From Escherichia phage vB-Eco-KMB43: a stretch of 64,000 bases of DNA. A program made the translations under genes and the position numbers. Each line of letters starts with the position of its first letter. Position 1 is the stretch's first letter. Shown piece by piece: positions 4,367 through 59,882 of this stretch. The notes beneath the pieces are model-generated. The model saw only the letters and a program-made list of their open reading frames with translations, was not told the origin of the DNA and did no database searches. The stretch is from the sequence record OR525698.1; one strand, written 5' to 3'.

Positions 4367-6267
4367 CAAAGCAAAAGATTACACAAATTCCTGATATTTT
4401 TAATGCTGCTACATTCGATGAAATTAAAAGCGCATTAACAGACTGGATGAGAAACCAGGAAGAATTTAAAGATTTTGATTTTAATGGTGCTGGTATTAAC
4501 GTATTGATGGACTTGCTCGCATATAATACCCTTTATATTCAGCAATTCGCCAACGCCGCGCTATATGAATCTTTTATCAGAACGGCAATTAAGCGTAGTT
4601 CAGTTGTTCAAGCCGCGCAAGATTTAGGATATTTGCCAGCAAGTAAAACTAGTGCATCGACTACAATTATGTTGCACGTATCCCATCCGCGAAATCCGGC
4701 AAGTATTCGAATCCCACGAGGAACTAAATTTATTGCAAGTGTGGATCGCCAGACGTCTTACCCGTTTGTGACTACAGAAGACGTTGTGAGCGTTTTAGGT
4801 TCAAATGGTTTATATACGCCCATGCTTAAAGTCGCACAAGGTCGTATTGTTCGTACAGAAATGTTATTTGATCCGAAGAAACAAATTCTGATCCGTGATC
4901 CTGATATTGACCGCGCTCAGGTTAAGTTGTGGGTAGACGGTGCTGAATGGAAAGACTGGACGCGAGAAAGCATTGTTAATGCAACTGGCGCTAGTAATAT
5001 TTTCTATATGCGTGAAACCGTAGACGGACATACTGAAATTTTCTTTGGTGAGGGCGAATCAACTTTATCTGCTGCTGGTGGGGCGCTGGAAGCAAATTAT
5101 ATTGGTGGACTTAAGCCGTCAACTGGTGCTAATATTGTTATCGAATATATCAGCACTAAGGGCGCGGAAGCAAACGGTTCAGTTAATTTCACATACGCGG
5201 ATACCCTTGCATCTATCTCTATTGTTAAAATTATTGAGAATCCGACAAATGATCGTGATTATGTCGGTGCAGATGGTGGTGGTGATCCTGAATCAATCGA
5301 ACGTATCCGTGAACTTGCTCCGGTAATGCGTGAATCTCAGCGTCGTTGTGTAACTGCTTCCGACTACGAGGCTTTTGTATCTAGCCGTTTTGGTAGTATT
5401 GTTCAGGCGGTACAATGTTTCACCGACCGAGAAAAACCAGGTTATGCTTTTGTTGCTGTTAAGCCTAAATCTGGCTTGCGCTTGACAACTGTTCAAAAAG
5501 AAGATATGCGGGATTATCTGGCAAAATATAACCTTGCCCCTATCACGCCGAGCATCATTGACCCTAACTATCTGTATATTAAACAGAATATTAAAGTTTC
5601 CTATTCAATCAATGACTTGTCAGAATCAGAGCAGTGGTTGCGAGGTGCGGTTATTGATCAGATTGATGCATATTATACCGACGAAGTGGAAATTTTTAAC
5701 CAGACATTTAGTAAGTCTAAAATGCTTGCTCGTATTGACAAAGCTGATGTATCTGTGATAGGTTCTAGTGCAGAAATCGAGATGGTGCGAGAGATCGACA
5801 ACTTCTATAAAGCACCGATGGCGGGAATCAAGTTTTTAAACCAGTATAAGAGCGGAATCAAGTCTAGTTCATTCAACTTCGAAAAGGACGACAAGCAATA
5901 TCCGATCCATTATGTAAGTACAGAAATGAACAAAGAATCCGGTTTAGCTAAATTGTTGGTTGGACCTTTCCCTGTTGATTCTACAATCGCTTTACCGCAC
6001 TATTCCGGCACTGATTTTGATAAAGAGGTTATTGACGGGGCGGACCTATACTTTGAGGTTGGAGAGGTTCAGCATTATGACGACCTTATTTCATGGGATC
6101 TGGGTAAACTGAATATCAATAGCGATCGCTTTACTGGTTCATATATTGAGTTGACAGCTAAACCGATTGCTGATAACATCTTTACTAAAGACGGTTCTTT
6201 GATCGTGTTTGAAAACGATCTCCGTCCTCAGTACACAACTATTAGTCTGGAGGCAATTGCTCAATGA
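4363..6267 (+). CDS. gp6: baseplate wedge protein gp6
   Basis: 634 aa; synteny and size (T4 gp6 ~660 aa); ATGA-type overlap with neighbours. Confidence 0.7.
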
Positions 6268-9200
6268 TTAAAGCGCCTAGTGTAACTAGCTTGACAATAG
6301 AAAAATTGTCTGCTAATCAGGCGTATATCACATGGGATGACGTAGGCGAAAACTTCTTTTATTTTGTGGAGTTAGCCGAAACCAGAACACGAGACGGGGA
6401 GATCATCCCCGTCGATGAGTTAAGCTGGGTAAACCTGGGATATACTGCCGACCAAAACTGGTTTGAGGATAAAAACCTTTTTCCAGAATATTATTACAAA
6501 TTTCGTGTAGCAGTAGCCGCAGAAGGATTTGAACAAAGTAAATGGATTGAAACCGAAGAGTTTCAGACATTTAAAACAAACGCATATAATTTTTCTATGA
6601 TGCGAGAGTTCAACCTTGCAAACGAGTTTATAAAGGAAAAATTTACATACGATAATCGAGAGTATGTCAAGTTTAATACCGACCTTATTCAAGCATCATT
6701 GATGAAGGAAGATTTTGTCTTTAGTCCTGAATATGCAAACATGACAAATATCTCAAACTACATTGTAGTTGATGAGAACTTTCATGAAATACAGGATCAC
6801 ATAGAAAAAGTTTGTATTGATATAAACCGCACTATGTTAGCGGAAATGAACGGTGTTTTGTACCTTTTCGAACGGTTCCAGCCGATTGTGAAAGTGTCAA
6901 ATGATAAAGGTCAATCATGGAAAGCATACAAGGCTTTTAATGACCGTGTAGGAAATCCGGTTTCCCGCACATGCGTTTATCAGTCTAAAACCACTACTTA
7001 CGTTTTAGGATATGACCGAATCTTTTACGGACGACAAGCTAGCGATACTCGATGGAGCGCGGACGATGTTCGATTTAGTGATGATACGATCACTTTTGCA
7101 AAGGTTGGTGACGAGAACGATTTAGGCTTTGACGTTGAGGTCTTTGGTGTATTTTCCAGATTAACAGGGGACACCACAAAATACGCCGAAGCTATGGCGT
7201 GCAGTGATGACTATTTGTGGGTTGGTGCTAAAGATGTTATTCGCCGGATTCGTCTTAAGAATACTCCAGTTGATACCGTACAGGGTTCGCCTACGTTTGG
7301 AGAAAAAATATTCGATCCTGATGTTATCCGAGTAACAGGAAATGATAAAGCTGTCATTCAGAAAATGGATGTGATCGACGGTAAATTGCTTGTATTTGTT
7401 ACTGGTGAAGTTAAACAGCGTTATCAAGATCCAACCAAACCAGAAAACGTTGTTCCGTCAGATGATGCGGGTGTATACTTAATAGGGAGTGATGGTCTGT
7501 CTTTTCAGAGAGTATTTGGCAACACTCCGCAGGAAAGGGAATATATTCAGCATGGGTTCAGTAATATGTCAACCAATGGTGATGAGGTGTTCATAAGCCA
7601 TTATAATCATCACTTCGAAAGCATTTTACCTGATCCAGAAACTGCCGAGAAATATGAATTGGGCGAAGCTGTAAAATATTCTCAGGAGCCAACTTATCTA
7701 ACTGATAAGAAAATACATCAAACGACTTTCAGAGCAAGTTATGATGATTTGCGTATTTGGGAATTAGGACCGCAAGCGTATTATAATGAGGCTGATTATA
7801 CATGGATGCGTCGAAACGGTGTTCGTGTATGGATCACAAATGATAATCGCCCGTTGGTTGTTTATCCAGAGGTTATCTATACTCAAGAAGTTGATACTTC
7901 CGGCATTCTTGATAAAAACAGAATTAACCGTGAAGTTTATGATAAAGGGACCGTGACCTGTTATCTTAACAATGTTAAATTTGAAGGATTTAAACAATAT
8001 GCATCCGGTGTAATGTTCCATAAAAACACGGGAGAGATCATAGGATTCTATCAATTTAACTATCGCGTTCGTGATCAGGTTGGTGTATATTGGAAACCTA
8101 CAAATGTAGCATTTGTTGCTGAATTGCAAAATCAGGTTCGAGAGGTTCCCTGGGTTCCGGTTCACTACGATCGAGAACAAGACCCAGATTTGCGACCTTT
8201 ACTGAATAAGATGACACCTGATAGCTTTTTACTTGAGAACGAAAATTTCAGAAAATTCTCTGAATATTATCTGCAATTCTTAAGTGATGGTTCAGGAACA
8301 TATTATAATAAACTAAAAAATCTGATTAAAAACAAATATCCACGCGAGCAAGATGCATATGAGTATCTTTGGTCAGAGATGAACAAACGAAACATCTATG
8401 CAGATAAAAACAAGCGAGATGCGGTCGTAAGATTCTTTGAATCCCGCAAATCAGATTTTTATTCCACTAAGGGCGTGGAGGCTTCTTATAAGTTCTTGTT
8501 TAAGTTACTTTATAATGAAGATGTGGAAATTGAGGTTGAATCACAAGCCGGACTAGAGTATGATATTGTTGTTAGTTCAACGAACATTGACGAGGATATC
8601 GTAGGTCGCACGATTTATACCACGACCGGACGGGCTAACGTGACTTATCTTGAAAGGGAATATGAAGGTGGACGTCTACGCTGGCGAGTAACCATTCATA
8701 ACCTGATCGGGCGGTTCGAAGAAGGTCAAGTGATCAAATCAGAGAAAACAGCGTTTGAAGGGATGATCCTTGTTGGTGTACGTGGTAAAGAGTTGCTGAG
8801 TAGTTCAATCGACTATATCAACCGATCACGAAGCCAATACACCATGAAGATTAAAAGTGCATTGCCAGTTTCGCGCTATGCAAATGATGTAATGCGATTC
8901 GTTCATCCTGTCGGCTTTGGGTTTATCGGTGTTACCCTGCTTACGATGTTCATTAACAGCGGGTTGAGCATGAAGCACACCGAGACTATAATTCAATCTC
9001 TGAAAAATTATAAGTTTGACAGCGGATTGCCTAGCGTGTATCCTGATCGGGTGGCAGACCTTGATGTTGATGGAAATATTAAGATTGACCCACTAACAGG
9101 GAAACCATTATACTTAACGTCACCGACAATTGGCGAAGAGTTCCCTGTTCCTCCTGAATATGATCAGGAGAACAGCGAATTGTTCCACGGACTTAAAGCA

Positions 9201-52015: not shown

Positions 52016-52348
52016 TTATAGTCTCCTGAATGGATCATCACGTAAATCAATATCTTTTAAGAACTCATCCCATGAATGGCGGATATTGTTCTTAATTCTC
52101 CAGATAAGCGCAGGGATTGAACGCTCTCCCATCTGGAAGTATGGATCATATGATCCGTATGCCCAATATGCTACTACAATTCCACAATCAGCGCAATAGT
52201 ATTCTATTTCACTTGCTGGCGACCAAAGTCCATCAATATGATCGGTGATCTTGCTTTCGATGTTATGGCTATGACAATCAGGGCAACGGATGCAATGACC
52301 TTGTTTATCGTAATTTGACGTTAGCGAATACTTAAACAATCTCATCAT
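52016..52348 (-). CDS. zinc-ribbon protein (two CxxC pairs)
   Basis: 110 aa; CIRCPDC ... CADCG; start overlaps upstream stop (ATGA). Confidence 0.45.
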   Translation of the reverse strand: MMRLFKYSLTSNYDKQGHCIRCPDCHSHNIESKITDHIDGLWSPASEIEYYCADCGIVVAYWAYGSYDPYFQMGERSIPALIWRIKNNIRHSWDEFLKDIDLRDDPFRRL

Positions 52349-53061
52349 AGATCCTTATTTGCTTCAAATACTGCCTTTGCGAATCCTCGCGGGGTAAGTG
52401 ACCTGATAGTCTTTGTTTTCGTTCCTTTCCCGCCTAGCTTAGAATGCTGTTTACTGTACCCTTTATTAATCTGCAAAGGTTTCTTTTCTGGCATTATAAA
52501 GCCTTGTCCGGTCCATAAGCAAGTCTTTTTCGGGTACATATCACGGGCGGCGATATACTCAGGAAAAGTAGGATGTTTATCATCTTCCGGCAAATAACCG
52601 CCATATTCCCACGGATGGAACATATAATCAGGCTTACGCCACATGCTAGAGATAACGCTTACAGGATTCTCTATCATGTAGGGAACTCCTAGCCATTCAC
52701 CCAAATAAGCGGTTATTTTAGCTGCCCGTACATCATGAACTTGAATCAATGGTCCTTGCTCTCGTTTCTTTCGTTCAAAGTGTGCAGCGCCACTAACAGC
52801 TAAATTGGTGCACGGTGGGAATGCAAAGATAATATCCGGTTTCCCCCATTCAAGGTCCATTGCTCTTTCCAGCCAGTTCAAATCAATCCAGGTGTTTACA
52901 TAGGTAATGTTTGGATGTTCAAATCTGGTATTATACTTTTTGTATGTACCGTGGTCGGCGTCATCCGCATTAAAGCAGACTACCTTATGACCTGCTTTAG
53001 CCCATTCTAGCCCCATTATCCCCGATCCGTCAAAGTTACAGAATATTAATTTTTGTTTCAT
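52345..53061 (-). CDS. C5-cytosine methyltransferase-fold protein (atypical PCT motif)
   Basis: 238 aa; motif I-like FCNFDGSGIMG, motif IV-like DIIFAFPPCTNLAVSGA, motif VI-like MIENP; no obvious target-recognition domain. Confidence 0.5.
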   Translation of the reverse strand: MKQKLIFCNFDGSGIMGLEWAKAGHKVVCFNADDADHGTYKKYNTRFEHPNITYVNTWIDLNWLERAMDLEWGKPDIIFAFPPCTNLAVSGAAHFERKKREQGPLIQVHDVRAAKITAYLGEWLGVPYMIENPVSVISSMWRKPDYMFHPWEYGGYLPEDDKHPTFPEYIAARDMYPKKTCLWTGQGFIMPEKKPLQINKGYSKQHSKLGGKGTKTKTIRSLTPRGFAKAVFEANKDL

Positions 53062-53303
53062 ATACGCCCCTTTAATCCAACACAGATTTTAGAAGGTTCT
53101 TTGCCGTGCCACATTAAGTAAAGTCCATTAATGCGGCCTTGTTTTGTATATGATTCTTTTCTGATCTTCTTATAGTGTCGTGCTTCCTCAGCCGATTGTT
53201 TAGAATACCAATCATAAAGGAAGAGGCACAAAGGCCAACCATTAGCGGCCTTAATGCAGTTATTAAGAAATTCCTTATTGCGTTTAATTAATTTTCTTTT
53301 CAC
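53058..53303 (-). CDS. hypothetical basic protein (81 aa)
   Basis: ORF with overlapping start/stop in the operon. Confidence 0.4.
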   Translation of the reverse strand: MKRKLIKRNKEFLNNCIKAANGWPLCLFLYDWYSKQSAEEARHYKKIRKESYTKQGRINGLYLMWHGKEPSKICVGLKGRI

Positions 53304-53551
53304 GCTGCCCCCATTGGTTTGATAGTAACAGAATCTAAAAGACCTTTGTTAGCCAGTTCGCGGCAAGTTTTCAGATCCGCAACTTCCCAGCCAGCCGCAA
53401 TCAGGTTATCGATGAGGCTGTTAGCAACTTCTTCGCTCATGAAAGAGCACTGTTTGCCGATGGTGTAGCGTACACGCTGTAATTTCAGTTTACGGAAGCC
53501 TTTAACGTTCAGGTCTTTAGCGATTTTCTTTGCGGTTTCGATGTTAGCCAT
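53300..53551 (-). CDS. hypothetical protein (83 aa), first gene of the operon
   Basis: ATG directly downstream of cassette copy 3 (AGGAGAATCAAACAATG). Confidence 0.45.
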   Translation of the reverse strand: MANIETAKKIAKDLNVKGFRKLKLQRVRYTIGKQCSFMSEEVANSLIDNLIAAGWEVADLKTCRELANKGLLDSVTIKPMGAA

Positions 53552-53628
53552 TGTTTGATTCTCCTAAGTGGTATCTAGTCTTGATGGTTGTATTGTAGGG
53601 GAGTTATCCTCCCCTGTCAACACTTTTT
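53552..53628 (-). promoter_or_regulatory. promoter/5'UTR cassette copy 3 (PeSL-like)
   Basis: TTGACA (plus 53615-53620), palindromic spacer GGGGAGGATAACTCCCC, TACAAT, conserved UTR. Confidence 0.6.
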
Positions 53629-53634
53629 ATAAAA

Positions 53635-53802
53635 TTATTTGTTAATTTCCGGTGCGTTGCTAGGATAGTAACCTTCTTTAACTCCGAGGTATTTCGCAAC
53701 CATCCCTACAATCTTCTGTGCTACTACAATGTCAAATTTCAGATAATCTTCGCCGTGGGTTTCAATGATATATGCTTCACATGCTGCTTTAGTCTCGAAC
53801 AT
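53635..53802 (-). CDS. hypothetical small protein (55 aa), paralogue of 57256-57423
   Basis: ATG after cassette copy 4; about 87% amino-acid identity to the second copy. Confidence 0.5.
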   Translation of the reverse strand: MFETKAACEAYIIETHGEDYLKFDIVVAQKIVGMVAKYLGVKEGYYPSNAPEINK

Positions 53803-53873
53803 TTTGATTCTCCTATTTCGTTTCGGTATGTGTGTATTATAGGGGATCTCCCGATCCCCGTCAACAACTTTTT
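53803..53873 (-). promoter_or_regulatory. promoter/5'UTR cassette copy 4 (PeSL-like)
   Basis: TTGACG (plus 53860-53865), palindromic spacer GGGATCGGGAGATCCCC, TATAAT. Confidence 0.6.
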
Positions 53874-53880
53874 TTTAAAA

Positions 53881-54162
53881 TTATTCGTGATTAGTTTCGA
53901 TGTTGTGCATTTTGCACCAGTTCAGCCAATCACCCAGATCCTGATAGTTAATGCTTTTATCTGCTGCCATCGTTTTTGTCTTGATACCCATATGTGCGTT
54001 ATGAGTAAGCATTTTTACAGTGAACTCAATTTTATCACCTTTAGCTTTAACATCAACCAGTTTGGTCCACTGGCTACCAGCGCCGCGAATGTTCATACCA
54101 ACGATGTTTCCGATGTATGCTTCTTTGTTTTTCAGGATTTCGGTTGCTTTGATGAATTTCAT
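53881..54162 (-). CDS. hypothetical protein (93 aa)
   Basis: ORF downstream of cassette copy 5. Confidence 0.45.
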   Translation of the reverse strand: MKFIKATEILKNKEAYIGNIVGMNIRGAGSQWTKLVDVKAKGDKIEFTVKMLTHNAHMGIKTKTMAADKSINYQDLGDWLNWCKMHNIETNHE

Positions 54163-54232
54163 TTTTGATTCTCCAGTTCGTTTCGGTATGTGTGTATTAT
54201 GCTATTTTCTTACTTTGGTGTCAACAACTTTT
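54163..54232 (-). promoter_or_regulatory. promoter/5'UTR cassette copy 5 (PeSL-like)
   Basis: TTGACA (plus 54219-54224), CATAAT, conserved UTR. Confidence 0.55.
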
Positions 54233-54233
54233 T

Positions 54234-54503
54234 TTAGATATTTTCAGAAATAAATTTTAAAACTTGACGTAAATGTTTCTCATCTTTGATAGTCGCCGGA
54301 AGTTCTTCTTTTACTTCCTGTGCAAGATAGATATTTCCGTTCCAAGTGAAAGATCCGTCTTCGTTTACGCGATAGCTGAACATCCACTCGCAATCATTTT
54401 CGATTTCATATACACACAGAAGAGTGTAATCTTCAAAGCTATTGATTTCAAGGTCGAAGCCGTGACGTTTTGCAAAGTTGGTAGTGGTTTTAGTCAGTGC
54501 CAT
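54234..54503 (-). CDS. hypothetical protein (89 aa)
   Basis: ORF downstream of cassette copy 6. Confidence 0.45.
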   Translation of the reverse strand: MALTKTTTNFAKRHGFDLEINSFEDYTLLCVYEIENDCEWMFSYRVNEDGSFTWNGNIYLAQEVKEELPATIKDEKHLRQVLKFISENI

Positions 54504-54580
54504 TGTTTGATTCTCCTAAGTGGTATCTCGTCTTGATGGGTGTATTATGCTATAGGCGTGATCTGGTGTCAATGCTTTTT
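54504..54580 (-). promoter_or_regulatory. promoter/5'UTR cassette copy 6 (PeSL-like)
   Basis: TTGACA (plus 54567-54572), 17-bp spacer, CATAAT. Confidence 0.55.
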
Positions 54581-54820
54581 TTAATTTTATGCAATAAAAA
54601 GACGACACTAAGGTCGGCACATTTTAAAAATTCTTGCCATATATGCAAGCCTCATAATCTAGAGGATGACCGCCAATCCTACCCGGCTTAATATTCCAAC
54701 CGCATCGATATTTGCTGACCATGCTAACAGTTTCGGTTCTTAGAGCATTTTCTTTGCAAATCATACCCCATAAATTCTTTTCTATAAGGACAGTCCGCTT
54801 TGCAAGTTGGCGGTTCTACG

Positions 54821-55012
54821 TCATTTAGCGGGTCGGAAGCAGTTGGCTTTATTATCAATTCTTTGTTTGCAATAATCATAAGCACATCCCATTGAAGACA
54901 ATTTAACATCTTCGCAATAAGTGTTGAATCCGTCAAACACGGTCACTTCGTATTTGACTCCATCAGCGATAGCTTTTACTTTATACCATCCATGCTTGTA
55001 TAAAATCTTCAT
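54821..55012 (-). CDS. hypothetical Cys-rich protein (63 aa)
   Basis: ATG directly downstream of cassette copy 7; overlapped out of frame by ORF 54724-54936. Confidence 0.4.
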   Translation of the reverse strand: MKILYKHGWYKVKAIADGVKYEVTVFDGFNTYCEDVKLSSMGCAYDYCKQRIDNKANCFRPAK

Positions 55013-55082
55013 CTTTATTTCCTCAATCTCGTTTCGATGGGTGTATTATGCTATAGGCTAGACCAGGTTGTCAACAACTTTT
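55013..55082 (-). promoter_or_regulatory. promoter/5'UTR cassette copy 7 (PeSL-like)
   Basis: TTGACA (plus 55069-55074), CATAAT, conserved UTR. Confidence 0.55.
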
Positions 55083-55103
55083 TTAATTTTTTGGAAATAA
55101 AAA

Positions 55104-55124
55104 AGCCGACGCTAAGGTCGGCTA
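55104..55124 (-). terminator. rho-independent terminator (minus strand)
   Basis: AGCCGACGCTAAGGTCGGCT hairpin with TTTTTT on the minus strand; degenerate copy at 54597-54620. Confidence 0.6.
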
Positions 55125-55130
55125 ATAAAA

Positions 55131-55439
55131 TCATTTAGACAAATAATCATTCTGTGCAATCCGGTCGGCGTATGCTGGTGTTACGTCAATCGCCAACACT
55201 TTAACGCGTGCTTTCTTGCGACCTGGGTTTTCTCGTAACCAGTGCTCATGACCGTGCACATTTTTATATTTTGATGCGGTTTCGAAGGTACGGATCGGAC
55301 CTGGATAATCTGCGTAAAGGATCTCTAGGTCTTCGGTGATGTAAAAATATACATCATAATTACTGTTCTCTAGTTTAAGCAGAGAATTGCGAAATTGTGG
55401 TAAATTCTCGCGGGTAAATTCAACTACAAGATTTTTCAT
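55131..55439 (-). CDS. small protein, paralogue family A (HxHW ... AxDV.P..AD), member 1
   Basis: ATG 55439 with GAGGA SD; HEHW and VLAIDVTPAYAD motifs. Confidence 0.5.
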   Translation of the reverse strand: MKNLVVEFTRENLPQFRNSLLKLENSNYDVYFYITEDLEILYADYPGPIRTFETASKYKNVHGHEHWLRENPGRKKARVKVLAIDVTPAYADRIAQNDYLSK

Positions 55440-55468
55440 AGTGATATCCTCATTCAGATAGATTAAAA

Positions 55469-55483
55469 GGGGCTTAACGCCCC
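55469..55483 (-). terminator. hairpin terminator (minus strand)
   Basis: GGGGCTTAACGCCCC palindrome, identical to 50941-50955. Confidence 0.5.
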
Positions 55484-55488
55484 GTATA

Positions 55489-55776
55489 TTAAAACAGTCC
55501 TTCCTGTACACCGTAGTAGAGTTCGTCACTGATAATTTCATTAATGCGACGGTGTGCATATTCCTGATTTGCGAAGTTGTCAGCAAGTTCTACTTTAGTT
55601 TCGCCGTCATGAGTCCATTTAGTGATAACTTTACCATCTGCAAATTTGAAGTTGAACTCTTTAGCTACTGCATCGCGTACCAGACGTGCGAACTTGTTGT
55701 TACGGATTGCATTATCGGTTTCGTGTGCAGCGTGAGCAAATTTGTTAACTTTCAGAGTGATAGTAATGTATGCCAT
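55489..55776 (-). CDS. small protein, paralogue family B, member 1
   Basis: 95 aa; LVRDAVAKEFNFK shared with 58658-58969 (LIREVRKALAKEFNTK). Confidence 0.5.
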   Translation of the reverse strand: MAYITITLKVNKFAHAAHETDNAIRNNKFARLVRDAVAKEFNFKFADGKVITKWTHDGETKVELADNFANQEYAHRRINEIISDELYYGVQEGLF

Positions 55777-55859
55777 AATTTGATTCTCCTAGTTAGAAAG
55801 TGTATCTCGTTTCGATGGGTGTATTATGCTATACACCCGATCCATTGTCAACGCCTTTT
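55777..55859 (-). promoter_or_regulatory. promoter/5'UTR cassette copy 8 (PeSL-like)
   Basis: TTGACA (plus 55846-55851) overlapping the stop codon of the upstream ORF; CATAAT. Confidence 0.55.
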
Positions 55860-56183
55860 TATAAAATAATTTTCGATATCTTTATGATGTTTTTCTCGTG
55901 CTTGGTCTGCCTCGGCTGGCGATACGTTGGAAGCGATAATCTTCACTACTGTTGCACCTTTTTCGGTGTCCGACACCCAATGATTATGGAAACCGCTATT
56001 ATTAAACACTTGATAAGAAAATGATTTAATGCTAGGGAAATTATATGTGTAATAGCGTACCTTTAATTCTGAATCTATGTATAGATAGATCACCGCACCT
56101 AGATAGACCGTCTCACTCGTTCCATCAACTAACAGTAGAGTATTTCGCAATTCTTCTAAATTGTCTTTTGTAAGAAAAATCAT
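55848..56183 (-). CDS. small protein, paralogue family A, member 2
   Basis: 111 aa; LYIDSELKVRYY, HNHW, IIASNVSPAEAD. Confidence 0.5.
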   Translation of the reverse strand: MIFLTKDNLEELRNTLLLVDGTSETVYLGAVIYLYIDSELKVRYYTYNFPSIKSFSYQVFNNSGFHNHWVSDTEKGATVVKIIASNVSPAEADQAREKHHKDIENYFIKRR

Positions 56184-56197
56184 AGTATAATCCTCAA

Positions 56198-56533
56198 TTA
56201 AACCAAATTAACTTTGGTGTTGTGGTGTTTTTCTCGTGCTTCGTCCGCTTCTTCCGGTGTCACGTTACGAGCGACTACAATAACACTTGCTGCCTCTCCG
56301 TGATGAGAGATCTCTACCCAATGGTTATGATTTGTGAATCCGTGTTTTATTGCGTAAGCGAACGGCTTGGACGTCCAGTAGTTACTATAATATCGTACAT
56401 TTAGATCGCTATCAATGTACAAATATGTGCTGTCGTTTACATTGCCACTAACAACAAAAACAAGACAATTGCGAAGATCTGGCAATATTTTGTCTGTCAA
56501 TTTTATAATGTGACTGTTCATAATTAACACCAC
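56198..56533 (-). CDS. small protein, paralogue family A, member 3
   Basis: 111 aa; LYIDSDLNVRYY, HNHW, VVARNVTPEEAD. Confidence 0.5.
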   Translation of the reverse strand: MVLIMNSHIIKLTDKILPDLRNCLVFVVSGNVNDSTYLYIDSDLNVRYYSNYWTSKPFAYAIKHGFTNHNHWVEISHHGEAASVIVVARNVTPEEADEAREKHHNTKVNLV

Positions 56534-56733
56534 TCAAGAGTTTTTGAAAACACATCTATCCATTGTTGAGTATATGCAGTTTCTTTCCACGAGACAATAC
56601 CAGTAGAATAATGATTCTTGTTTCCAGAAAAGGACGGGCATTTTGATGCATCTTCCATCATCTTTTCGGCGAACTCTGGTTCGTATACTCGCAAGATCTG
56701 TTGATATGCTTTGTAGTCTTTAAATTTGCTCAT
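56524..56733 (-). CDS. hypothetical small protein (69 aa)
   Basis: ORF between family A members. Confidence 0.4.
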   Translation of the reverse strand: MSKFKDYKAYQQILRVYEPEFAEKMMEDASKCPSFSGNKNHYSTGIVSWKETAYTQQWIDVFSKTLEWC

Positions 56734-56998
56734 AATCGTTAACTACCTTATCAGCTTCTTTTATTGTTTTTACATCAACTGCGATAACCCGTAAAGGTTC
56801 GTCGTGGTTCCACCAATGATCGTGAATATCAGCTTGTGATTTATCACCAAAGGAATCACGAATATCATTTTTACATTTATAGCTAATGTGACCGTCATAG
56901 TCAACATAAAGGTAATTATCGAAAATCGGCGTTTTTAAGATCATGCCGAAAAATCTTTCTTTGTGTGTCTTATCCAGTGTTGCAGTAATTCGCATCAT
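56720..56998 (-). CDS. small protein, paralogue family A, member 4
   Basis: 92 aa; HDHW, VIAVDVKTIKEAD; AGAGGAA SD. Confidence 0.5.
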   Translation of the reverse strand: MMRITATLDKTHKERFFGMILKTPIFDNYLYVDYDGHISYKCKNDIRDSFGDKSQADIHDHWWNHDEPLRVIAVDVKTIKEADKVVNDYEQI

Positions 56999-57010
56999 AA
57001 TATATTCCTC

Positions 57011-57190
57011 TTAGAAAGGGATGGTCATTTCTTGAGCTTGTACATTCTCGTTAGGATTAAACTTCATCCAACCGATATTGTCTACCAGCATATGCACATT
57101 TTTATCATATCCTACGTGAGTAGTCAATACTAAATGTGCTTTACCTTCAACGATGATTTCCATGTACTTCTGAACTTCGATAGCTTTCAT
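57011..57190 (-). CDS. hypothetical small protein (59 aa)
   Basis: ATG directly downstream of cassette copy 9; not in ORF track. Confidence 0.4.
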   Translation of the reverse strand: MKAIEVQKYMEIIVEGKAHLVLTTHVGYDKNVHMLVDNIGWMKFNPNENVQAQEMTIPF

Positions 57191-57191
57191 T

Positions 57192-57255
57192 TTTGATTCT
57201 CCGTTTGTTGTCTTGATGGGAGTATATTACTACTCCCTTTAATCATTGTCAACTA
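57192..57255 (-). promoter_or_regulatory. promoter/5'UTR cassette copy 9 (PeSL-like)
   Basis: TTGACA (plus 57247-57252), 17-bp spacer, TAATAT; palindrome GGGAGTA..TACTCCC. Confidence 0.5.
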
Positions 57256-57423
57256 TTATTTGTTAATTTCCGGTGCGTTGCTCGGATAGTAACCTTCTTT
57301 AACACCCAGATATTTTGCGACCATTCCGGTGATCTTCTGTGCTACTACAATGTCAAATTTCAGGTAGTCTTCACCGTGGTTTGCTACAATGTATGCTTCG
57401 CATTCTGCTTTAGTCTGGAACAT
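57256..57423 (-). CDS. hypothetical small protein (55 aa), paralogue of 53635-53802
   Basis: near-identical nucleotide and protein sequence to the first copy; ATG after cassette copy 10. Confidence 0.5.
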   Translation of the reverse strand: MFQTKAECEAYIVANHGEDYLKFDIVVAQKITGMVAKYLGVKEGYYPSNAPEINK

Positions 57424-57493
57424 TTTTGATTCTCCTATATCTCGTTGGTATGTGTGTAGTATAGGGGATCACCGATCCCCTGTCAACAACTTT
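57424..57493 (-). promoter_or_regulatory. promoter/5'UTR cassette copy 10 (PeSL-like)
   Basis: TTGACA (plus 57481-57486), palindromic spacer GGGGATCGGTGATCCCC, TATACT. Confidence 0.6.
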
Positions 57494-57802
57494 TTATTCT
57501 TCATCTTCATCTTTATCTTGATATGCGTACGTCATAAATTTGTCTGCTACTTTGTCCGCGTTTTCAGGTTCTACGTCTGACGCTAGGACAACAGCTAGTT
57601 CTGTTTTGTCGTTTCCATCATACCAATGATTATGAGTGTCGTTTTCTTCGATATAAAACGAATCATTTGGAGTTGTGCGACAATATACGTCTAAATTCCC
57701 ATCGATATAAAAGATCCAATCCGAATACAAAATGATTGTTTTAGCAAGATTTTTATTGCCTTCAACGAAAGGTTCGGCTACAAACAAATTAGTATGTTCC
57801 AT
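57494..57802 (-). CDS. small protein, paralogue family A, member 5
   Basis: ATG 57802 with GAGGA SD; HNHW, LAVVLASDVEPENAD. Confidence 0.5.
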   Translation of the reverse strand: MEHTNLFVAEPFVEGNKNLAKTIILYSDWIFYIDGNLDVYCRTTPNDSFYIEENDTHNHWYDGNDKTELAVVLASDVEPENADKVADKFMTYAYQDKDEDEE

Positions 57803-57819
57803 AGTATTTTTCCTCAAAA

Positions 57820-58011
57820 TTATACAGCTTCGTAAACTTCCCAATGTCCAACACCAGCACGCTTAACGAAAAGGTTTTCTTTTATGTTATTCATAAACGT
57901 CTGGATGGATTTAATTCGTTTGGAAGGTTTCCAGTCTTCGTTGGTATTGCGTCGATACATCATAACATTACCAGACCGCTTATATTCAGCAACCATTTTA
58001 AGACCACACAT
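57820..58011 (-). CDS. hypothetical small protein (63 aa)
   Basis: ATG 58011 with GAGGA SD downstream of cassette copy 11. Confidence 0.4.
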   Translation of the reverse strand: MCGLKMVAEYKRSGNVMMYRRNTNEDWKPSKRIKSIQTFMNNIKENLFVKRAGVGHWEVYEAV

Positions 58012-58090
58012 AATATTATCCTCAATTTGTGGGAGAGTATTACCCTCCCGATTATTGTTATACTACATTACGCAAAATGGCGTGTCAATG
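58012..58090 (-). promoter_or_regulatory. promoter cassette copy 11 (divergent variant)
   Basis: TTGACA (plus 58083-58088, inside the 3' end of the upstream ORF), TAGTAT; palindrome GGGAG..CTCCC. Confidence 0.4.
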
Positions 58091-58388
58091 CTTCTTTTGC
58101 TGTTCCGCTAAGATTCTCTATCTCTCCTGGCATAACATCAACCGCCAGAACTTCTACAACATCCTCTGATCCTAACCAGTGAGTATGACCTTTGTAGAAC
58201 TTGATAATCAGACTACCTTCCTCATCCCATTTAACGCTATCGCTAGCCCACCACACATCACCGTCGATAAAGTTGATGTAAAGCACACTACGCCACATTG
58301 AATTAATTACTTTCAATACTGCGCCTTTCATATCTTCCACGGTGTGGTCTTCCATTTTGAAGACCTCGCCTACCTGAACTTTTGCCAT
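58068..58388 (-). CDS. small protein, paralogue family A, member 6
   Basis: 106 aa; HTHW, VLAVDVMPGEIEN. Confidence 0.5.
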   Translation of the reverse strand: MAKVQVGEVFKMEDHTVEDMKGAVLKVINSMWRSVLYINFIDGDVWWASDSVKWDEEGSLIIKFYKGHTHWLGSEDVVEVLAVDVMPGEIENLSGTAKEALTRHFA

Positions 58389-58405
58389 TTAGTCACCTCT
58401 CTTTA

Positions 58406-58585
58406 TTACATAACAATTACGCCAGCCGTTGAAAGTTGATGTTTCAACTGAGCATTTTCTGCTACTGTCAAATCAATGATTTCTTGTGACGCTGCAATCA
58501 TATAGCCATTGGTGATATTGTTTTGCATCAGTTCAATGGTTTCTTCGTTGTAGCGGATTTTAGCGATGATTTCGTTGAAGTTCAT
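58406..58585 (-). CDS. hypothetical small protein (59 aa)
   Basis: ATG 58585 directly downstream of cassette copy 12; not in ORF track. Confidence 0.4.
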   Translation of the reverse strand: MNFNEIIAKIRYNEETIELMQNNITNGYMIAASQEIIDLTVAENAQLKHQLSTAGVIVM

Positions 58586-58657
58586 AATTGATTCTCCTAG
58601 TTCGTTTCGGTATGTGTGTATTATAGGGGAGTTTAACCTCCCCTGTCAACAACTTTT
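58586..58657 (-). promoter_or_regulatory. promoter/5'UTR cassette copy 12 (PeSL-like)
   Basis: TTGACA (plus 58645-58650), palindromic spacer GGGGAGGTTAAACTCCCC, TATAAT. Confidence 0.6.
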
Positions 58658-58969
58658 TTAAAGTTTTTCCATGATAACGGTCATAATTACATCTTCTGCG
58701 CGAGCGGTCAGATTATCAGCGTCAGCATGTGGGCGGTTGGTTGTTACAGAGATAACACCGTTGCGCACTGGTTTGATATTGATATCAAGATGATCCGCGA
58801 AACGTTCGCCAGTTACAGAATGAATTTTGGTGTTAAATTCTTTTGCCAGTGCCTTGCGAACTTCACGAATCAGGATAGCGTTTTTCAGTTGGTTCTCCGC
58901 GCTCATGGTCTTCTGAGTGTTCATGGTTCCGTCGAAGTCAATCATTGGCAGCGTTACGATGTATTTCAT
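58658..58969 (-). CDS. small protein, paralogue family B, member 2
   Basis: 103 aa; LIREVRKALAKEFNTK. Confidence 0.5.
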   Translation of the reverse strand: MKYIVTLPMIDFDGTMNTQKTMSAENQLKNAILIREVRKALAKEFNTKIHSVTGERFADHLDINIKPVRNGVISVTTNRPHADADNLTARAEDVIMTVIMEKL

Positions 58970-59056
58970 TTTTGATTCTCCGTTTAAGAAAGTGTGTTTC
59001 GTTTTGATGTGTGTAGTATAGGGGATACGTGATCCCCTGTCAACAACTTTTTTGAA
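58970..59056 (-). promoter_or_regulatory. promoter/5'UTR cassette copy 13 (PeSL-like)
   Basis: TTGACA (plus 59038-59043), palindromic spacer GGGGATCACGTATCCCC, TATACT. Confidence 0.6.
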
Positions 59057-59401
59057 TTATTTTTTCATGAGCTTAATGGCTTCTTCCATAGCCAGCACAT
59101 TTCGATAGTTAGGGTATCGTGTTAGATCGTCATACATTCGCTTAAGGGTGGAAACTTCCTCAAACTCTGGGTTTTCTAGATACAGTTGAACAAATTGTTT
59201 CTCTACCATCTCGGCTTTTAGCTTGTCTGCTTGTTCCTGTTCATATGATTTCGTTGGACCCAACACCAACAAAATGATAAAGGTGATCAACGGGCTAATG
59301 ATCAATGATAGGATAACATAACCAATAACGCTACGGTTTAAACGGCTTGCGTACATGCCTACAAGGAAAACAAAAAGGATATAGATAAACAGAAAGAACA
59401 T
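59057..59401 (-). CDS. small inner-membrane protein (two predicted TM helices)
   Basis: 114 aa; N-terminal hydrophobic segments MFFLFIYILFVFLVGMYA and VIGYVILSLIISPLITFIILLVLG. Confidence 0.5.
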   Translation of the reverse strand: MFFLFIYILFVFLVGMYASRLNRSVIGYVILSLIISPLITFIILLVLGPTKSYEQEQADKLKAEMVEKQFVQLYLENPEFEEVSTLKRMYDDLTRYPNYRNVLAMEEAIKLMKK

Positions 59402-59408
59402 ATAATGG

Positions 59409-59882
59409 TTACTCCTTATTTTCGCGCTCGTACTTTTCGAAATAAAATTCTACTGGCTGGTCGTGGATTGACAGCAAGCCAAAGCGTTTAGCCGCTCGCA
59501 ATCCCATATTGCGCTGAATGTACTTCTGGAAGTTCTCGCGTATACACTTACGCCAGGATTCTAAGCCCATGCAGCTTTTATAAAGATTGCATTGCACACA
59601 TGCCGGATTCATGTTATCAAGTATATCATGCTCCGGTTTATGCATTCCTACAACCTTATACTTCCACGATCCATCATCATTACGGACAATTCGTCCATTT
59701 TCATCATAGACTACCTTTGAGCGTCGCAATACTGGTTTGATGTGGTCTGCGTGCCAGCGATCCCCTAGTTCCTCGCCACAATAGGCACAACGTCCACCAT
59801 ATTTCATTTTCAGGATCTGGCGTTGCTCTTTCTTTGACAATTTTTTAGGTTTAGGGGCTTTCGCCCCTTCATTATCACACAT
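59409..59882 (-). CDS. HNH endonuclease (candidate homing endonuclease)
   Basis: 157 aa; CAYCGEEL...HADHIKPV...NMNPACVQCN (CxxC-H-N-H-CxxC arrangement); start overlaps ligase stop region. Confidence 0.6.
   Translation of the reverse strand: MCDNEGAKAPKPKKLSKKEQRQILKMKYGGRCAYCGEELGDRWHADHIKPVLRRSKVVYDENGRIVRNDDGSWKYKVVGMHKPEHDILDNMNPACVQCNLYKSCMGLESWRKCIRENFQKYIQRNMGLRAAKRFGLLSIHDQPVEFYFEKYERENKE

What the first reader, a model, noticed from the sequence alone, without database searches (positions are those of the whole stretch)
55131..58388. Tandem family of six paralogous ~100-aa proteins with an HxHW ... A(V/I)DV.P..AD signature
ORFs ending at 55131, 55848, 56198, 56720, 57494 and 58068 share a common architecture: (L)Y(I/L)D..L.VRYY, a conserved H-x-H-W (HEHW, HNHW, HDHW, HTHW) and a C-terminal (V/I)(L/I)A(V/I)(D/N)V.P(E/A).AD segment, but are otherwise divergent. 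A second two-member family (55489-55776 and 58658-58969, motif (L/I)(V/I)R(D/E).(V/R)(A/K)(A)KEFN(F/T)K) is interleaved. Diversified tandem paralogues in a phage early region are typical of host-takeover or anti-defence effectors under arms-race selection. The conserved His pair suggests metal or nucleic-acid binding.
Basis: seen in the sequence. Interest (0 to 1): 0.65.

Follow-up and report, generated by a model that had tools for sequence, protein, structure and literature searches.

The report
Six-copy orphan protein family, RB49-like phage
Six neighbouring small genes in an RB49-like coliphage really are diverged copies of one previously undescribed protein family with an invariant His-x-His-Trp signature; they sit in a known early-expressed, fast-shuffling accessory region and their function is unknown.

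Summary
The window is a Krischvirus (RB49/JSE/phi1-like) genome. Between alt and DNA ligase gene 30, six minus-strand genes of 92-111 aa are true paralogues. A profile built from any five finds the sixth as the best hit among 753 window ORFs (E 1e-5 to 1e-20). Independent subfamily profiles match at 88-98% hhalign probability, except D-F at 48%. Tyr, His-x-His-Trp and a VLAxDV strand are conserved.

The genes lie in sigma-70 promoter/stem-loop (PeSL) units, the early cassettes described by Arbiol et al. 2010. They are far more polymorphic than their neighbours. Alleles are swapped as blocks, and some copies are frameshifted, so they are dispensable.

dN/dS is 0.1-0.3, so an arms race is not demonstrated. 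Anti-defence or host-takeover binding and metal coordination remain inference. Verdict: a real, undescribed member of a known kind, of moderate interest.

The parts
55131..55439 (-). Paralogue A (102 aa, HEHW); RB49 ORF197c equivalent
   Evidence: (phrog_9345)
55848..56183 (-). Paralogue B (111 aa, HNHW). This allele type is shared only with JSE; RB49-type genomes carry a 92-aa family member of about 25% identity in this slot.
56198..56521 (-). Paralogue C (107 aa, HNHW; an alternative GTG start lies at 56533). It is 45% identical to B and is the most recent tandem duplicate.
   Evidence: (D12)
56720..56998 (-). Paralogue D (92 aa, HDHW); RB49 ORF203c
   Evidence: (phrog_15972)
57494..57802 (-). 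Paralogue E (102 aa, HNHW, pI 4.1); RB49 ORF206c slot. It is the most polymorphic member.
   Evidence: (phrog_15965)
58068..58388 (-). Paralogue F (106 aa, HTHW); RB49 ORF208c
   Evidence: (phrog_16486)
55489..55776 (-). Second family, member a (95 aa, phrog_7474; RB49 ORF198c). It is the first gene of the unit that ends with A.
58658..58969 (-). Second family, member b (103 aa, phrog_7474). It is the RB49 ORFan210 equivalent, a gene shown to form PeSL mini-circles.
58586..58657 (-). PeSL (TTGACA, GGGGAGG..CUCCCC hairpin, TATAAT) driving o59b (58406-58585) and then F
58012..58088 (-). Promoter overlapping the 3' end of F (TTGACA-17-TAGTAT), followed by a hairpin; it drives o63b (57820-58011) and then E
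57424..57493 (-). PeSL downstream of E that drives the 55-aa ORF 57256-57423. It is the equivalent of RB49 PeSL206/205, which was experimentally a strong promoter.
57191..57255 (-). PeSL driving the five-gene unit o59a (57011-57190), D, o69 (56524-56733), C and B
   Evidence: hairpin z -4.5
55777..55851 (-). PeSL whose -35 hexamer contains the stop codon of B; it drives second-family member a and then A
55469..55483 (-). Terminator or attenuator hairpin (GGGGC..GCCCC, then T run) between second-family member a and A
55104..55123 (-). Intrinsic terminator after A, followed by the next PeSL (55024-55102)

Best explanation
SHOWN. The six genes form a lineage-specific multigene family, found in Krischvirus and a few uncultured sister phages. 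The proteins are small, predicted to be soluble, and dispensable. They lie in the alt-to-gene-30 hyperplastic region. Each is a downstream gene of a short unit driven by a PeSL early promoter/stem-loop cassette. All members share one compact predicted fold: five beta-strands and a C-terminal helix, with an invariant Tyr and an invariant His-x-His-Trp on the long loop before the last strand. The family arose by old tandem duplications; B and C are the youngest pair. It now diversifies mainly by exchange of diverged alleles and whole gene blocks between co-infecting relatives, under relaxed purifying selection.

INFERRED, about 0.4 overall. The proteins act early in infection as stoichiometric binders of host components, either defence proteins or other takeover targets. 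The conserved Tyr/His-x-His-Trp patch would be a common anchoring or ligand site, possibly a divalent metal site completed across a dimer, as the natural two-domain fusion P0084 hints. The adjacent variable loop, the N-terminus and the very different surface charge (pI 4.1-7.9) would give each slot and allele a different specificity. On this reading a phage carries a six-slot panel whose alleles can be swapped.
For: - Family and motif.
- Six conserved slots in 10 Krischvirus loci and none elsewhere in the genome.
- Restricted distribution: 20 clusters among 1.84 billion representatives, all small ORFans in the same ligase-alt interval.
- Early units: consensus promoters 11-12 of 12 matches, hairpins, GAGG ribosome sites, and no TATAAATA in 53000-59500. 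PeSL promoter and terminator activity was measured in RB49/phi1.
- Hypervariability: pN is 0.049 (A), 0.091 (E) and 0.026 (F) against 0.002 for ligase. The interleaved second-family genes are 95-100% identical across genomes. At 90% identity A forms 36 clusters, F 22 and E 17, against 3 for the whole second family.
- Block replacement of C+B, with breakpoints at gene and PeSL edges.
- Within-slot variation peaks in the loop just before HxHW and at the N-terminus.
- Dispensability: JSE has slot A frameshifted and slot E truncated, and the RB49/JSE E allele has lost signature residues.
- Consistent confident models (pLDDT 81 and 83, pTM 0.79 and 0.78). Their only weak structural neighbours are small binding-type barrels and an immunity protein.
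- Tandem fusion P0084.
Against: - There is no functional evidence of any kind: no homologue with a known role, no recognisable fold, and no informative neighbour.
- dN/dS is below 0.3 everywhere, including the variable loop, so antagonistic co-evolution is not demonstrated. High dS in E shows that the diversity is imported by recombination.
- Only four residues are invariant. Two histidines alone do not make a metal site, and the acidic residues nearby are not invariant.
- Dimerisation rests on one fusion protein from a 2.1-kb metagenomic contig.
- Model coordinates could not be inspected, so it is not verified that the conserved residues cluster in space.
Confidence: 0.4

Rival explanations
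1. The proteins are small enzymes. The invariant His-x-His would be a catalytic or metal centre, for example a phosphodiesterase or nuclease acting on a host nucleic acid or an immune signalling nucleotide. The active form could be a dimer, which would be consistent with the fusion protein.
For: - The two His and the following Trp are the only strictly conserved polar and aromatic cluster across members that share 20% identity.
- A natural tandem fusion exists.
Against: - The domain is only 85-110 aa.
- No Pfam or NCBIfam enzyme family recurs among 27 members.
- hhalign against two GIY-YIG proteins gives below 1% probability.
- There is only one His motif per domain, and the residue between the two His is polar, unlike the H-hydrophobic-T/S-hydrophobic motif of 2H enzymes (recalled from my own knowledge).
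- The acidic residues expected of a metal site are not invariant.
Confidence: 0.15
2. The proteins serve the phage's own programme rather than targeting the host. They could be modulators or chaperones of phage early proteins, for example partners of the small ORF that precedes each of them, or proteins packaged into the head and injected.
For: - Every paralogue is a downstream, closely coupled gene behind another small ORF: o59b-F, o63b-E, o59a-D, o69-C-B and second-family a-A.
- The o59b-F pairing is kept in the distant contig L002.
- The E N-terminus MEHTNLFVAE resembles the T4 internal-protein capsid-targeting sequence as I recall it.
Against: - The leader ORFs are unrelated to each other and belong to different PHROGs of unknown function.
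- The leaders are nearly invariant while the paralogues vary, which is not expected for co-evolving partners.
- The E-type N-terminus is unique in the genome and lies in predicted strand beta-1.
- There is no late promoter in the region.
- Copies are lost in JSE without loss of viability.
Confidence: 0.15
3. The genes are essentially selfish or near-neutral cargo of the PeSL shuffling system. They would persist because cassettes are continually copied and re-inserted, and would contribute no specific function to infection.
For: - PeSL-bounded cassettes come and go between close relatives in this very region: the o63a cassette, ORFan192, and a duplicated 55-aa ORF.
- Mini-circles of such cassettes are documented.
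- Frameshifted and truncated copies exist.
- Selection is relaxed relative to most neighbours.
Against: - dN/dS of 0.12-0.27 is clearly below 1.
- All six slots are occupied in every Krischvirus locus examined.
- Family members persist in phages only about 69% identical in DNA.
- Four residues have stayed invariant through divergence to about 20% identity.
- The paralogues are not individually bracketed by PeSLs.
Confidence: 0.12
4. The shared motifs are coincidental and the ORFs are unrelated or non-coding.
For: BLASTP between some pairs is weak, for example C-F at E 0.7. PHROGs splits the six genes into four families.
Against: - The leave-one-out profiles and profile-profile comparisons are significant.
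- The predicted topology is the same for C and E.
- The ORFs and their ribosome sites are conserved.
- Purifying selection is evident.
Confidence: 0.01

Closest known systems
PeSL-associated ORFan cassettes of the RB49/phi1 hyperplastic regions (Arbiol et al. 2010, PMC2839356; Comeau et al. 2014, PMC4122927)
   Same: This is the same genome region (HPR3, RB49 ORFs 197-210). The promoter/stem-loop cassettes are the same. The pattern of insertion, deletion and replacement between close relatives is the same. PeSL206/205 and ORFan210, both studied experimentally in that work, lie inside this array.
   Different: Those papers treat the ORFs as unrelated ORFans and contain no mention of paralogues. 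Here six of them are shown to be one protein family, with a conserved six-slot layout. The paralogues are downstream genes of PeSL units, not single PeSL-bracketed cassettes.
Polymorphic small accessory or anti-restriction loci of T-even phages, e.g. the internal protein genes (IPI*) and the alt/alt.-1/alt.-2 duplications (my own knowledge; the alt paralogy is noted in PMC1524935)
   Same: These are small, dispensable, highly polymorphic genes in hyperplastic regions of T4-type genomes. Paralogous duplication occurs next to alt. The role is host-directed, which is only presumed for the present family.
   Different: There is no sequence or fold relationship. There is no shared capsid-targeting N-terminus. 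The promoters here are of the early type, not late. No target is known.
Adaptive tandem gene amplification in viruses (poxvirus K3L 'gene accordions'; T4 tifA amplification against toxIN; my own knowledge)
   Same: Tandem copies of a small host-interaction gene arise by recombination between flanking repeats.
   Different: Those arrays are recent, near-identical and unstable. The present copies are ancient (20-45% identity), fixed as six orthologous slots across a genus, and individually diversified.
[not shown]
   Same: They have similar size and an all-beta core followed by a helix. This kind of fold typically binds a partner rather than catalysing a reaction.

Membership tests
PeSL-driven early ORFan units of Krischvirus hyperplastic regions | Location in a hyperplastic region between conserved core genes | tested here: met
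   The array lies between alt and gene 30 (DNA ligase), as RB49 ORFs 197c-210c do.
PeSL-driven early ORFan units of Krischvirus hyperplastic regions | Repeated intergenic cassette: AT-rich tract, sigma-70 -35/-10 hexamers, G/C-rich stem-loop and a Shine-Dalgarno sequence | tested here: met
   Ten repeat copies lie in 53571-59063, with 11-12 of 12 promoter matches and 7-8 bp G/C-rich hairpins.
PeSL-driven early ORFan units of Krischvirus hyperplastic regions | Each ORFan directly bracketed by PeSLs (a single-gene cassette) | tested here: not met
   The paralogues are the second to fifth genes of multi-gene units. Only the unit boundaries carry PeSLs.
PeSL-driven early ORFan units of Krischvirus hyperplastic regions | Presence/absence or replacement polymorphism between close relatives, with breakpoints at the cassettes | tested here: met
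   The C+B block is replaced, with breakpoints at 56515-56519 and at 55892 (about 40 nt from a PeSL -35 hexamer). The o63a and ORFan192 indels fall at PeSLs.
GIY-YIG nuclease superfamily | GIY and YIG strands plus conserved Arg, Glu and Asn; a match to Pfam PF01541; a significant fold match | tested here: not met
   [not shown]
2H phosphoesterases and metallo-beta-lactamase-type anti-signalling nucleases (Acb1- and Apyc1-like) | Two H-x-T/S-x motifs, or an HxHxDH motif, on the corresponding fold | tested here: not met
   [not shown]
HNH (beta-beta-alpha-Me) endonucleases | His, Asn and His spaced over about 30 residues on a beta-beta-alpha finger; a match to Pfam PF01844 | tested here: not met
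   The consecutive letters H-N-H are a coincidence; other members read HEH, HDH and HTH. There is no Pfam hit. The true HNH gene of the region is 59409-59882.
T4-type internal (injected) head proteins | A shared N-terminal capsid-targeting sequence ending in a protease site, plus late expression | tested here: not met
   Only E has a look-alike N-terminus, and no other ORF in the window or the rest of RB49 shares it. There is no late-promoter consensus in 53000-59500. Virion presence was not testable.
Known anti-defence proteins with solved structures (sponges, DNA mimics, Acr proteins) | Fold or sequence similarity to a characterised inhibitor | tested here: not met
   [not shown]
Known anti-defence proteins with solved structures (sponges, DNA mimics, Acr proteins) | Demonstrated inhibition of a defence system | not testable with these tools
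   This requires plating or biochemical assays.
Metal-binding His-x-His proteins | Coordination of a metal ion by the two histidines | not testable with these tools

The most novel reading that the evidence does not exclude
The family is a new fold class of phage counter-defence or host-takeover proteins. It would be built on a conserved Tyr/His-x-His-Trp ligand or metal site next to a variable specificity loop. The genus would keep it as a six-slot panel whose alleles are exchanged through PeSL-mediated recombination, in effect a cassette-based evasion repertoire for a phage lineage that often carries unmodified cytosine DNA.
Probability: 0.2. Interest if true: 0.7.

Novelty: new member of a known kind. 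Interest (0 to 1): 0.4.

Why it matters
The hyperplastic regions of T4-type phages hold hundreds of 'ORFans' and are usually treated as unstructured noise. About a quarter of the genes in one such region turn out to belong to a single ancient family, kept at exactly six slots across a genus while the alleles in those slots turn over. That gives a concrete, tractable target set for asking what these regions do: six genes, one signature, natural knock-outs and natural allele swaps. If the proteins prove to be host or defence binders, the array would add a new inhibitor fold. It would also be an example of how promoter/terminator cassettes (PeSLs) maintain a swappable repertoire. If they prove neutral, that would itself calibrate how much purifying selection such cargo can show.

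Tried and rejected
- Pfam, NCBIfam and PHROGs scans of the six proteins and of 27 family members gave only unknown-function PHROGs and non-recurrent noise.
- A PDB sequence search found nothing.
- An exhaustive HMMER search of 1.84 billion representatives, followed by a second word-index iteration with distant members, found no relatives outside the clade.
- The 2H, HNH, HIT and MBL readings of the His motif were rejected on motif pattern and the lack of any fold hit.
- The idea that E carries an internal-protein capsid-targeting sequence was judged to be chance.
- Predicting the tandem fusion P0084 was abandoned. MAFFT aligned family members half to domain 1 and half to domain 2, which would have produced an artefactual model.
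- A structure for the second family was abandoned because only 3 homologue clusters exist.
- The search for related loci failed with the full alignment because it has no conserved 7-mer. With narrower queries it gave only 2 viral and 2 metagenomic loci, all Krischvirus.
- Literature searches for the family, its motif, or Krischvirus anti-defence genes found nothing specific.
- Tests for positive selection, gene-wide and loop against rest, found none.


Full report
CONTEXT. The 4-kb stretch around the finding matches 58 phage records, all Krischvirus (the RB49, JSE, phi1 and GEC-3S group of T4-type coliphages). The best match is JSE, at 94% identity over 99% of the query. In JSE and RB49 the region lies on the complementary strand between alt (RNA polymerase ADP-ribosylase) and gene 30 (DNA ligase), and every gene in it is annotated 'hypothetical protein'. 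This is hyperplastic region HPR3 of Arbiol et al. 2010 (PMC2839356). That paper describes about 50 repeated 'PeSL' cassettes per genome, each a sigma-70 early promoter plus a stem-loop terminator. It shows that they mediate insertion, deletion and replacement of ORFans and form mini-circles.

OBSERVATION. The six ORFs are present on the minus strand. Using the ATG behind a GAGG ribosome site, and agreeing with the deposited annotations, they are:
- A 55131-55439
- B 55848-56183
- C 56198-56521
- D 56720-56998
- E 57494-57802
- F 58068-58388

A MAFFT alignment shows 22-29% identity to A, with invariant Tyr, His, His, Trp, Ala and Val. With 27 and 57 family members, Met1, the second His and Trp stay invariant, and the Tyr and first His stay above 90%.

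The similarity is statistically real on three counts:
- A profile built from any five members and searched with all filters off against all 753 window ORFs returns the sixth as the best non-training hit. E ranges from 1.4e-5 for D to about 1e-20 for B and C, and the next ORF scores no better than E 0.003.
- hhalign between subfamily alignments that share no sequences gives ABC-D 93%, ABC-E 98%, ABC-F 95%, D-E 95%, E-F 88% and D-F 48%.
- PHROGs places the six in four different families of unknown function (9345, 15972, 15965, 16486), with cross-hits from D, E and C. The unification is therefore not already in that resource.

No seventh member exists in the window or in the other 102 kb of the RB49 genome, where the best E is 0.88.

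The interleaved two-member family is also plausible. Both proteins hit phrog_7474 at about 1e-43. A local alignment around (L/I)(V/I)R..(A/L)AKEFN.K scores 55, against a maximum of 47 in 1000 shuffles. phmmer ranks the partner first at E 0.014, and the global alignment shows 34% identity. BLASTP alone fails.

ANATOMY. The intergenic spacers are copies of one repeat (ten copies between 53571 and 59063). Each consists of an A/T tract, GTTGTTGACA, a 7-8 bp G/C-rich hairpin, TATAAT/TATACT/CATAAT, and then GGAGAATCAAA-ATG. From these the transcription units read as follows:
- PeSL, second-family member b
- PeSL, o59b, F
- a promoter inside the 3' end of F, o63b, E
- PeSL, 55-aa ORF
- PeSL, o59a, D, o69, C, B
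- PeSL whose -35 hexamer contains the stop codon of B, second-family member a, hairpin, A, terminator

Every paralogue is thus a downstream, tightly spaced gene (gaps of 2-17 nt or overlaps; 49 nt with a hairpin for A), and each has its own GAGG site. No T4-type late promoter consensus (TATAAATA) occurs in 53000-59500, although ten occur elsewhere in the window. The PeSL after E corresponds by synteny to RB49 PeSL206/205, which gave about 13,000 Miller units in a lacZ fusion. Second-family member b is the equivalent of RB49 ORFan210, whose mini-circles were sequenced. Early expression is therefore well supported, though not measured for these genes.

DISTRIBUTION.
- A profile search through the 5.8-billion-sequence index found 79 clusters, all from Krischvirus-sized contigs or short fragments.
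- An exhaustive HMMER pass over 1.84 billion representatives found only 20 clusters at E of 1e-3 or better, all 68-203 aa.
- Iterating with the distant members added nothing.
- The distant members lie in the same ligase-alt interval of uncultured phages. L003 is a Krischvirus variant. L005 is only about 69% identical to Krischvirus in conserved genes and has two members. L002 is a 2.1-kb contig with four ORFs carrying five domains, including a natural tandem fusion, P0084.
- Viral and metagenome contig scans gave four more loci, all Krischvirus with six slots.
- No T4 protein or cellular protein is detectably related.

EVOLUTION.
- All ten Krischvirus loci examined have members at the same six positions.
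- Against eight other loci the flanking genes are 95-100% identical in protein, whereas A is 84-99%, E 60-92% and F 83-97%. Slots B, C and D carry alternative alleles of 46-59% identity.
- The C+B pair is replaced as one block between the window/JSE type and the RB49 type. Homology stops at 56515-56519 (o69 stop, C start) and at 55892, about 40 nt from the PeSL.
- The RB49 slot-B protein is a different family member, about 25% identical to the window's B. The window's B is closest (53%) to the RB49 slot-C protein.
- At 90% identity the public database holds 36 clusters for A, 22 for F and 17 for E, against 3 for the whole second family.
- Within-slot variation is concentrated in the loop just N-terminal of HxHW, which is also a hot spot for indels, and at the N-terminus.
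- Selection is purifying. Pooled dN/dS is 0.21 (A), 0.27 (B), 0.12 (D), 0.19 (E) and 0.17 (F), against 0.01-0.26 for neighbours (median about 0.07). The 0.77 for C rests on one near-identical pair. The loop is not above the rest, except mildly in E (0.26 against 0.14). High dS in E (0.37-0.56) shows that the diversity is imported by recombination.
- Decay is tolerated. In JSE slot A is split by a frameshift and slot E has lost its start. The RB49/JSE E allele reads TSNHW and has lost the D and AD signature residues.

STRUCTURE AND REMOTE HOMOLOGY. AlphaFold2 gave confident, concordant models for C (19-sequence alignment: pLDDT 81, pTM 0.79) and for E (57 sequences: pLDDT 83, pTM 0.78). The topology is a short strand, a three-strand meander carrying the LYID Tyr, a long loop (with a short helix in C) carrying HxHW, a fifth strand (VLAxDV) and a C-terminal helix starting at P..AD.

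MECHANISM. The following points are shown:
- The six genes are one family.
- It has one predicted fold.
- The genes sit in early-type transcription units.
- The layout is six fixed slots.
- Individual copies can be lost in viable phages.
- Polymorphism is high and driven by recombination at gene and PeSL boundaries.
- Selection is purifying but relaxed.

What follows is inferred. Small size, an all-beta binding-type core, the absence of any enzyme signature, strongly different surface charge between slots, and a variable loop beside an invariant patch fit a set of stoichiometric binders best. Such binders would share an anchoring or ligand site (Tyr/His-x-His-Trp) and differ in specificity. 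Early expression and dispensability in laboratory hosts point to host-directed accessory roles, either counter-defence or takeover. The His pair may bind a metal, possibly across a dimer, as the fusion P0084 hints. I put this at about 0.4.

The rivals are a small His-dependent enzyme (0.15), a role in the phage's own programme together with the leader ORFs or as injected proteins (0.15), near-neutral PeSL cargo (0.12), and chance (0.01).

COMPARISON AND NOVELTY. The closest known thing is the PeSL/ORFan system itself. The promoter cassettes, the region, and even two of its elements have been studied, but the papers contain no mention of paralogy among these ORFs. Further literature searches found no description of the family or its motif. 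It resembles the polymorphic accessory loci of T-even phages (the internal proteins, and the alt duplications noted) and adaptive tandem amplifications in other viruses (my own knowledge). It differs from these in being ancient, fixed at six orthologous slots, and without a known target. It fails the membership tests for GIY-YIG, HNH, 2H/MBL nucleases, internal proteins and structurally known anti-defence proteins.

I classify it as a new member of a known kind: a lineage-specific accessory gene family in a T4-type hyperplastic region. Interest is moderate. A specialist would not be surprised that such regions contain duplicated ORFans. The fixed six-slot panel, the invariant signature, the unrecognised fold and the natural allele swaps nevertheless make it a good experimental handle.

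Noticed in passing
window 53635-53802 and 57256-57423: A 55-aa ORF (phrog_8009; RB49 ORF191c/205c) is duplicated together with its flanking PeSL sequence. The copies are 87% identical at the DNA level over 172 nt and the proteins are nearly identical. This looks like a recent cassette duplication of the kind the mini-circle model predicts.
   Followed up: partly
window 54619-55025: The segment carrying the 63-aa ORF 54821-55012 is present only in this window and in RB49 among nine genomes compared. It is bounded by two PeSL copies (54523-54592 and 55024-55102), so it is a PeSL-bracketed indel.
   Followed up: partly
window 53874-53881: RB49 ORFan192, the worked example of PeSL excision in Arbiol et al. 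2010, is absent here. The window therefore has the phi1-type topology at that junction.
   Followed up: partly
L001 (JSE) 5187-5494 and 7547-7841: In phage JSE the slot-A gene is split by a frameshift into two annotated ORFs, and the slot-E gene has lost its N-terminus. The RB49/JSE slot-E allele has also lost the first His and two other signature residues. These are natural knock-outs showing that the genes are dispensable.
   Followed up: yes
L002 823-1434 (protein P0084): A 203-aa protein from a 2.1-kb metagenomic contig is a tandem fusion of two family domains. The same contig carries three more single-domain members. This is a possible hint that the domains work in pairs.
   Followed up: partly
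window 55489-55776: The first member of the second family gives a weak Pfam hit to Tox-ART-HYD1, a small ADP-ribosyltransferase toxin domain (E 0.062, 14 bits against a cut-off of 25). It lies a few kb from alt. This is probably noise, and too few homologues exist (3 clusters) to test it by profile or structure.
   Followed up: partly
window 57773-57802 (N-terminus of E): MEHTNLFVAE resembles the T4 internal-protein capsid-targeting sequence MKTYQEFIAE as I recall it. No other ORF in the window or the rest of RB49 has such an N-terminus, and it lies in a predicted strand, so I judged it to be chance.
   Followed up: yes
window 52345-53061 and the ORFs upstream of it (RB49 ORF187c-189c equivalents): The same hyperplastic region encodes a DNA methyltransferase-like protein. 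In a related contig (L003 9676-10194) it also encodes a 172-aa protein with a GmrSD_N (PF03235) domain. A 2026 paper reports that the cytosine-modification pathway of some Krischviruses is still unknown (PMC13390438).
   Followed up: no
protein P0078 (848-bp metagenomic contig): A 71-aa protein joins the first 9 residues of the 59-aa ORF 57011-57190 to the C-terminal two thirds of F. It is either a rearranged variant of the array or an assembly chimera.
   Followed up: no
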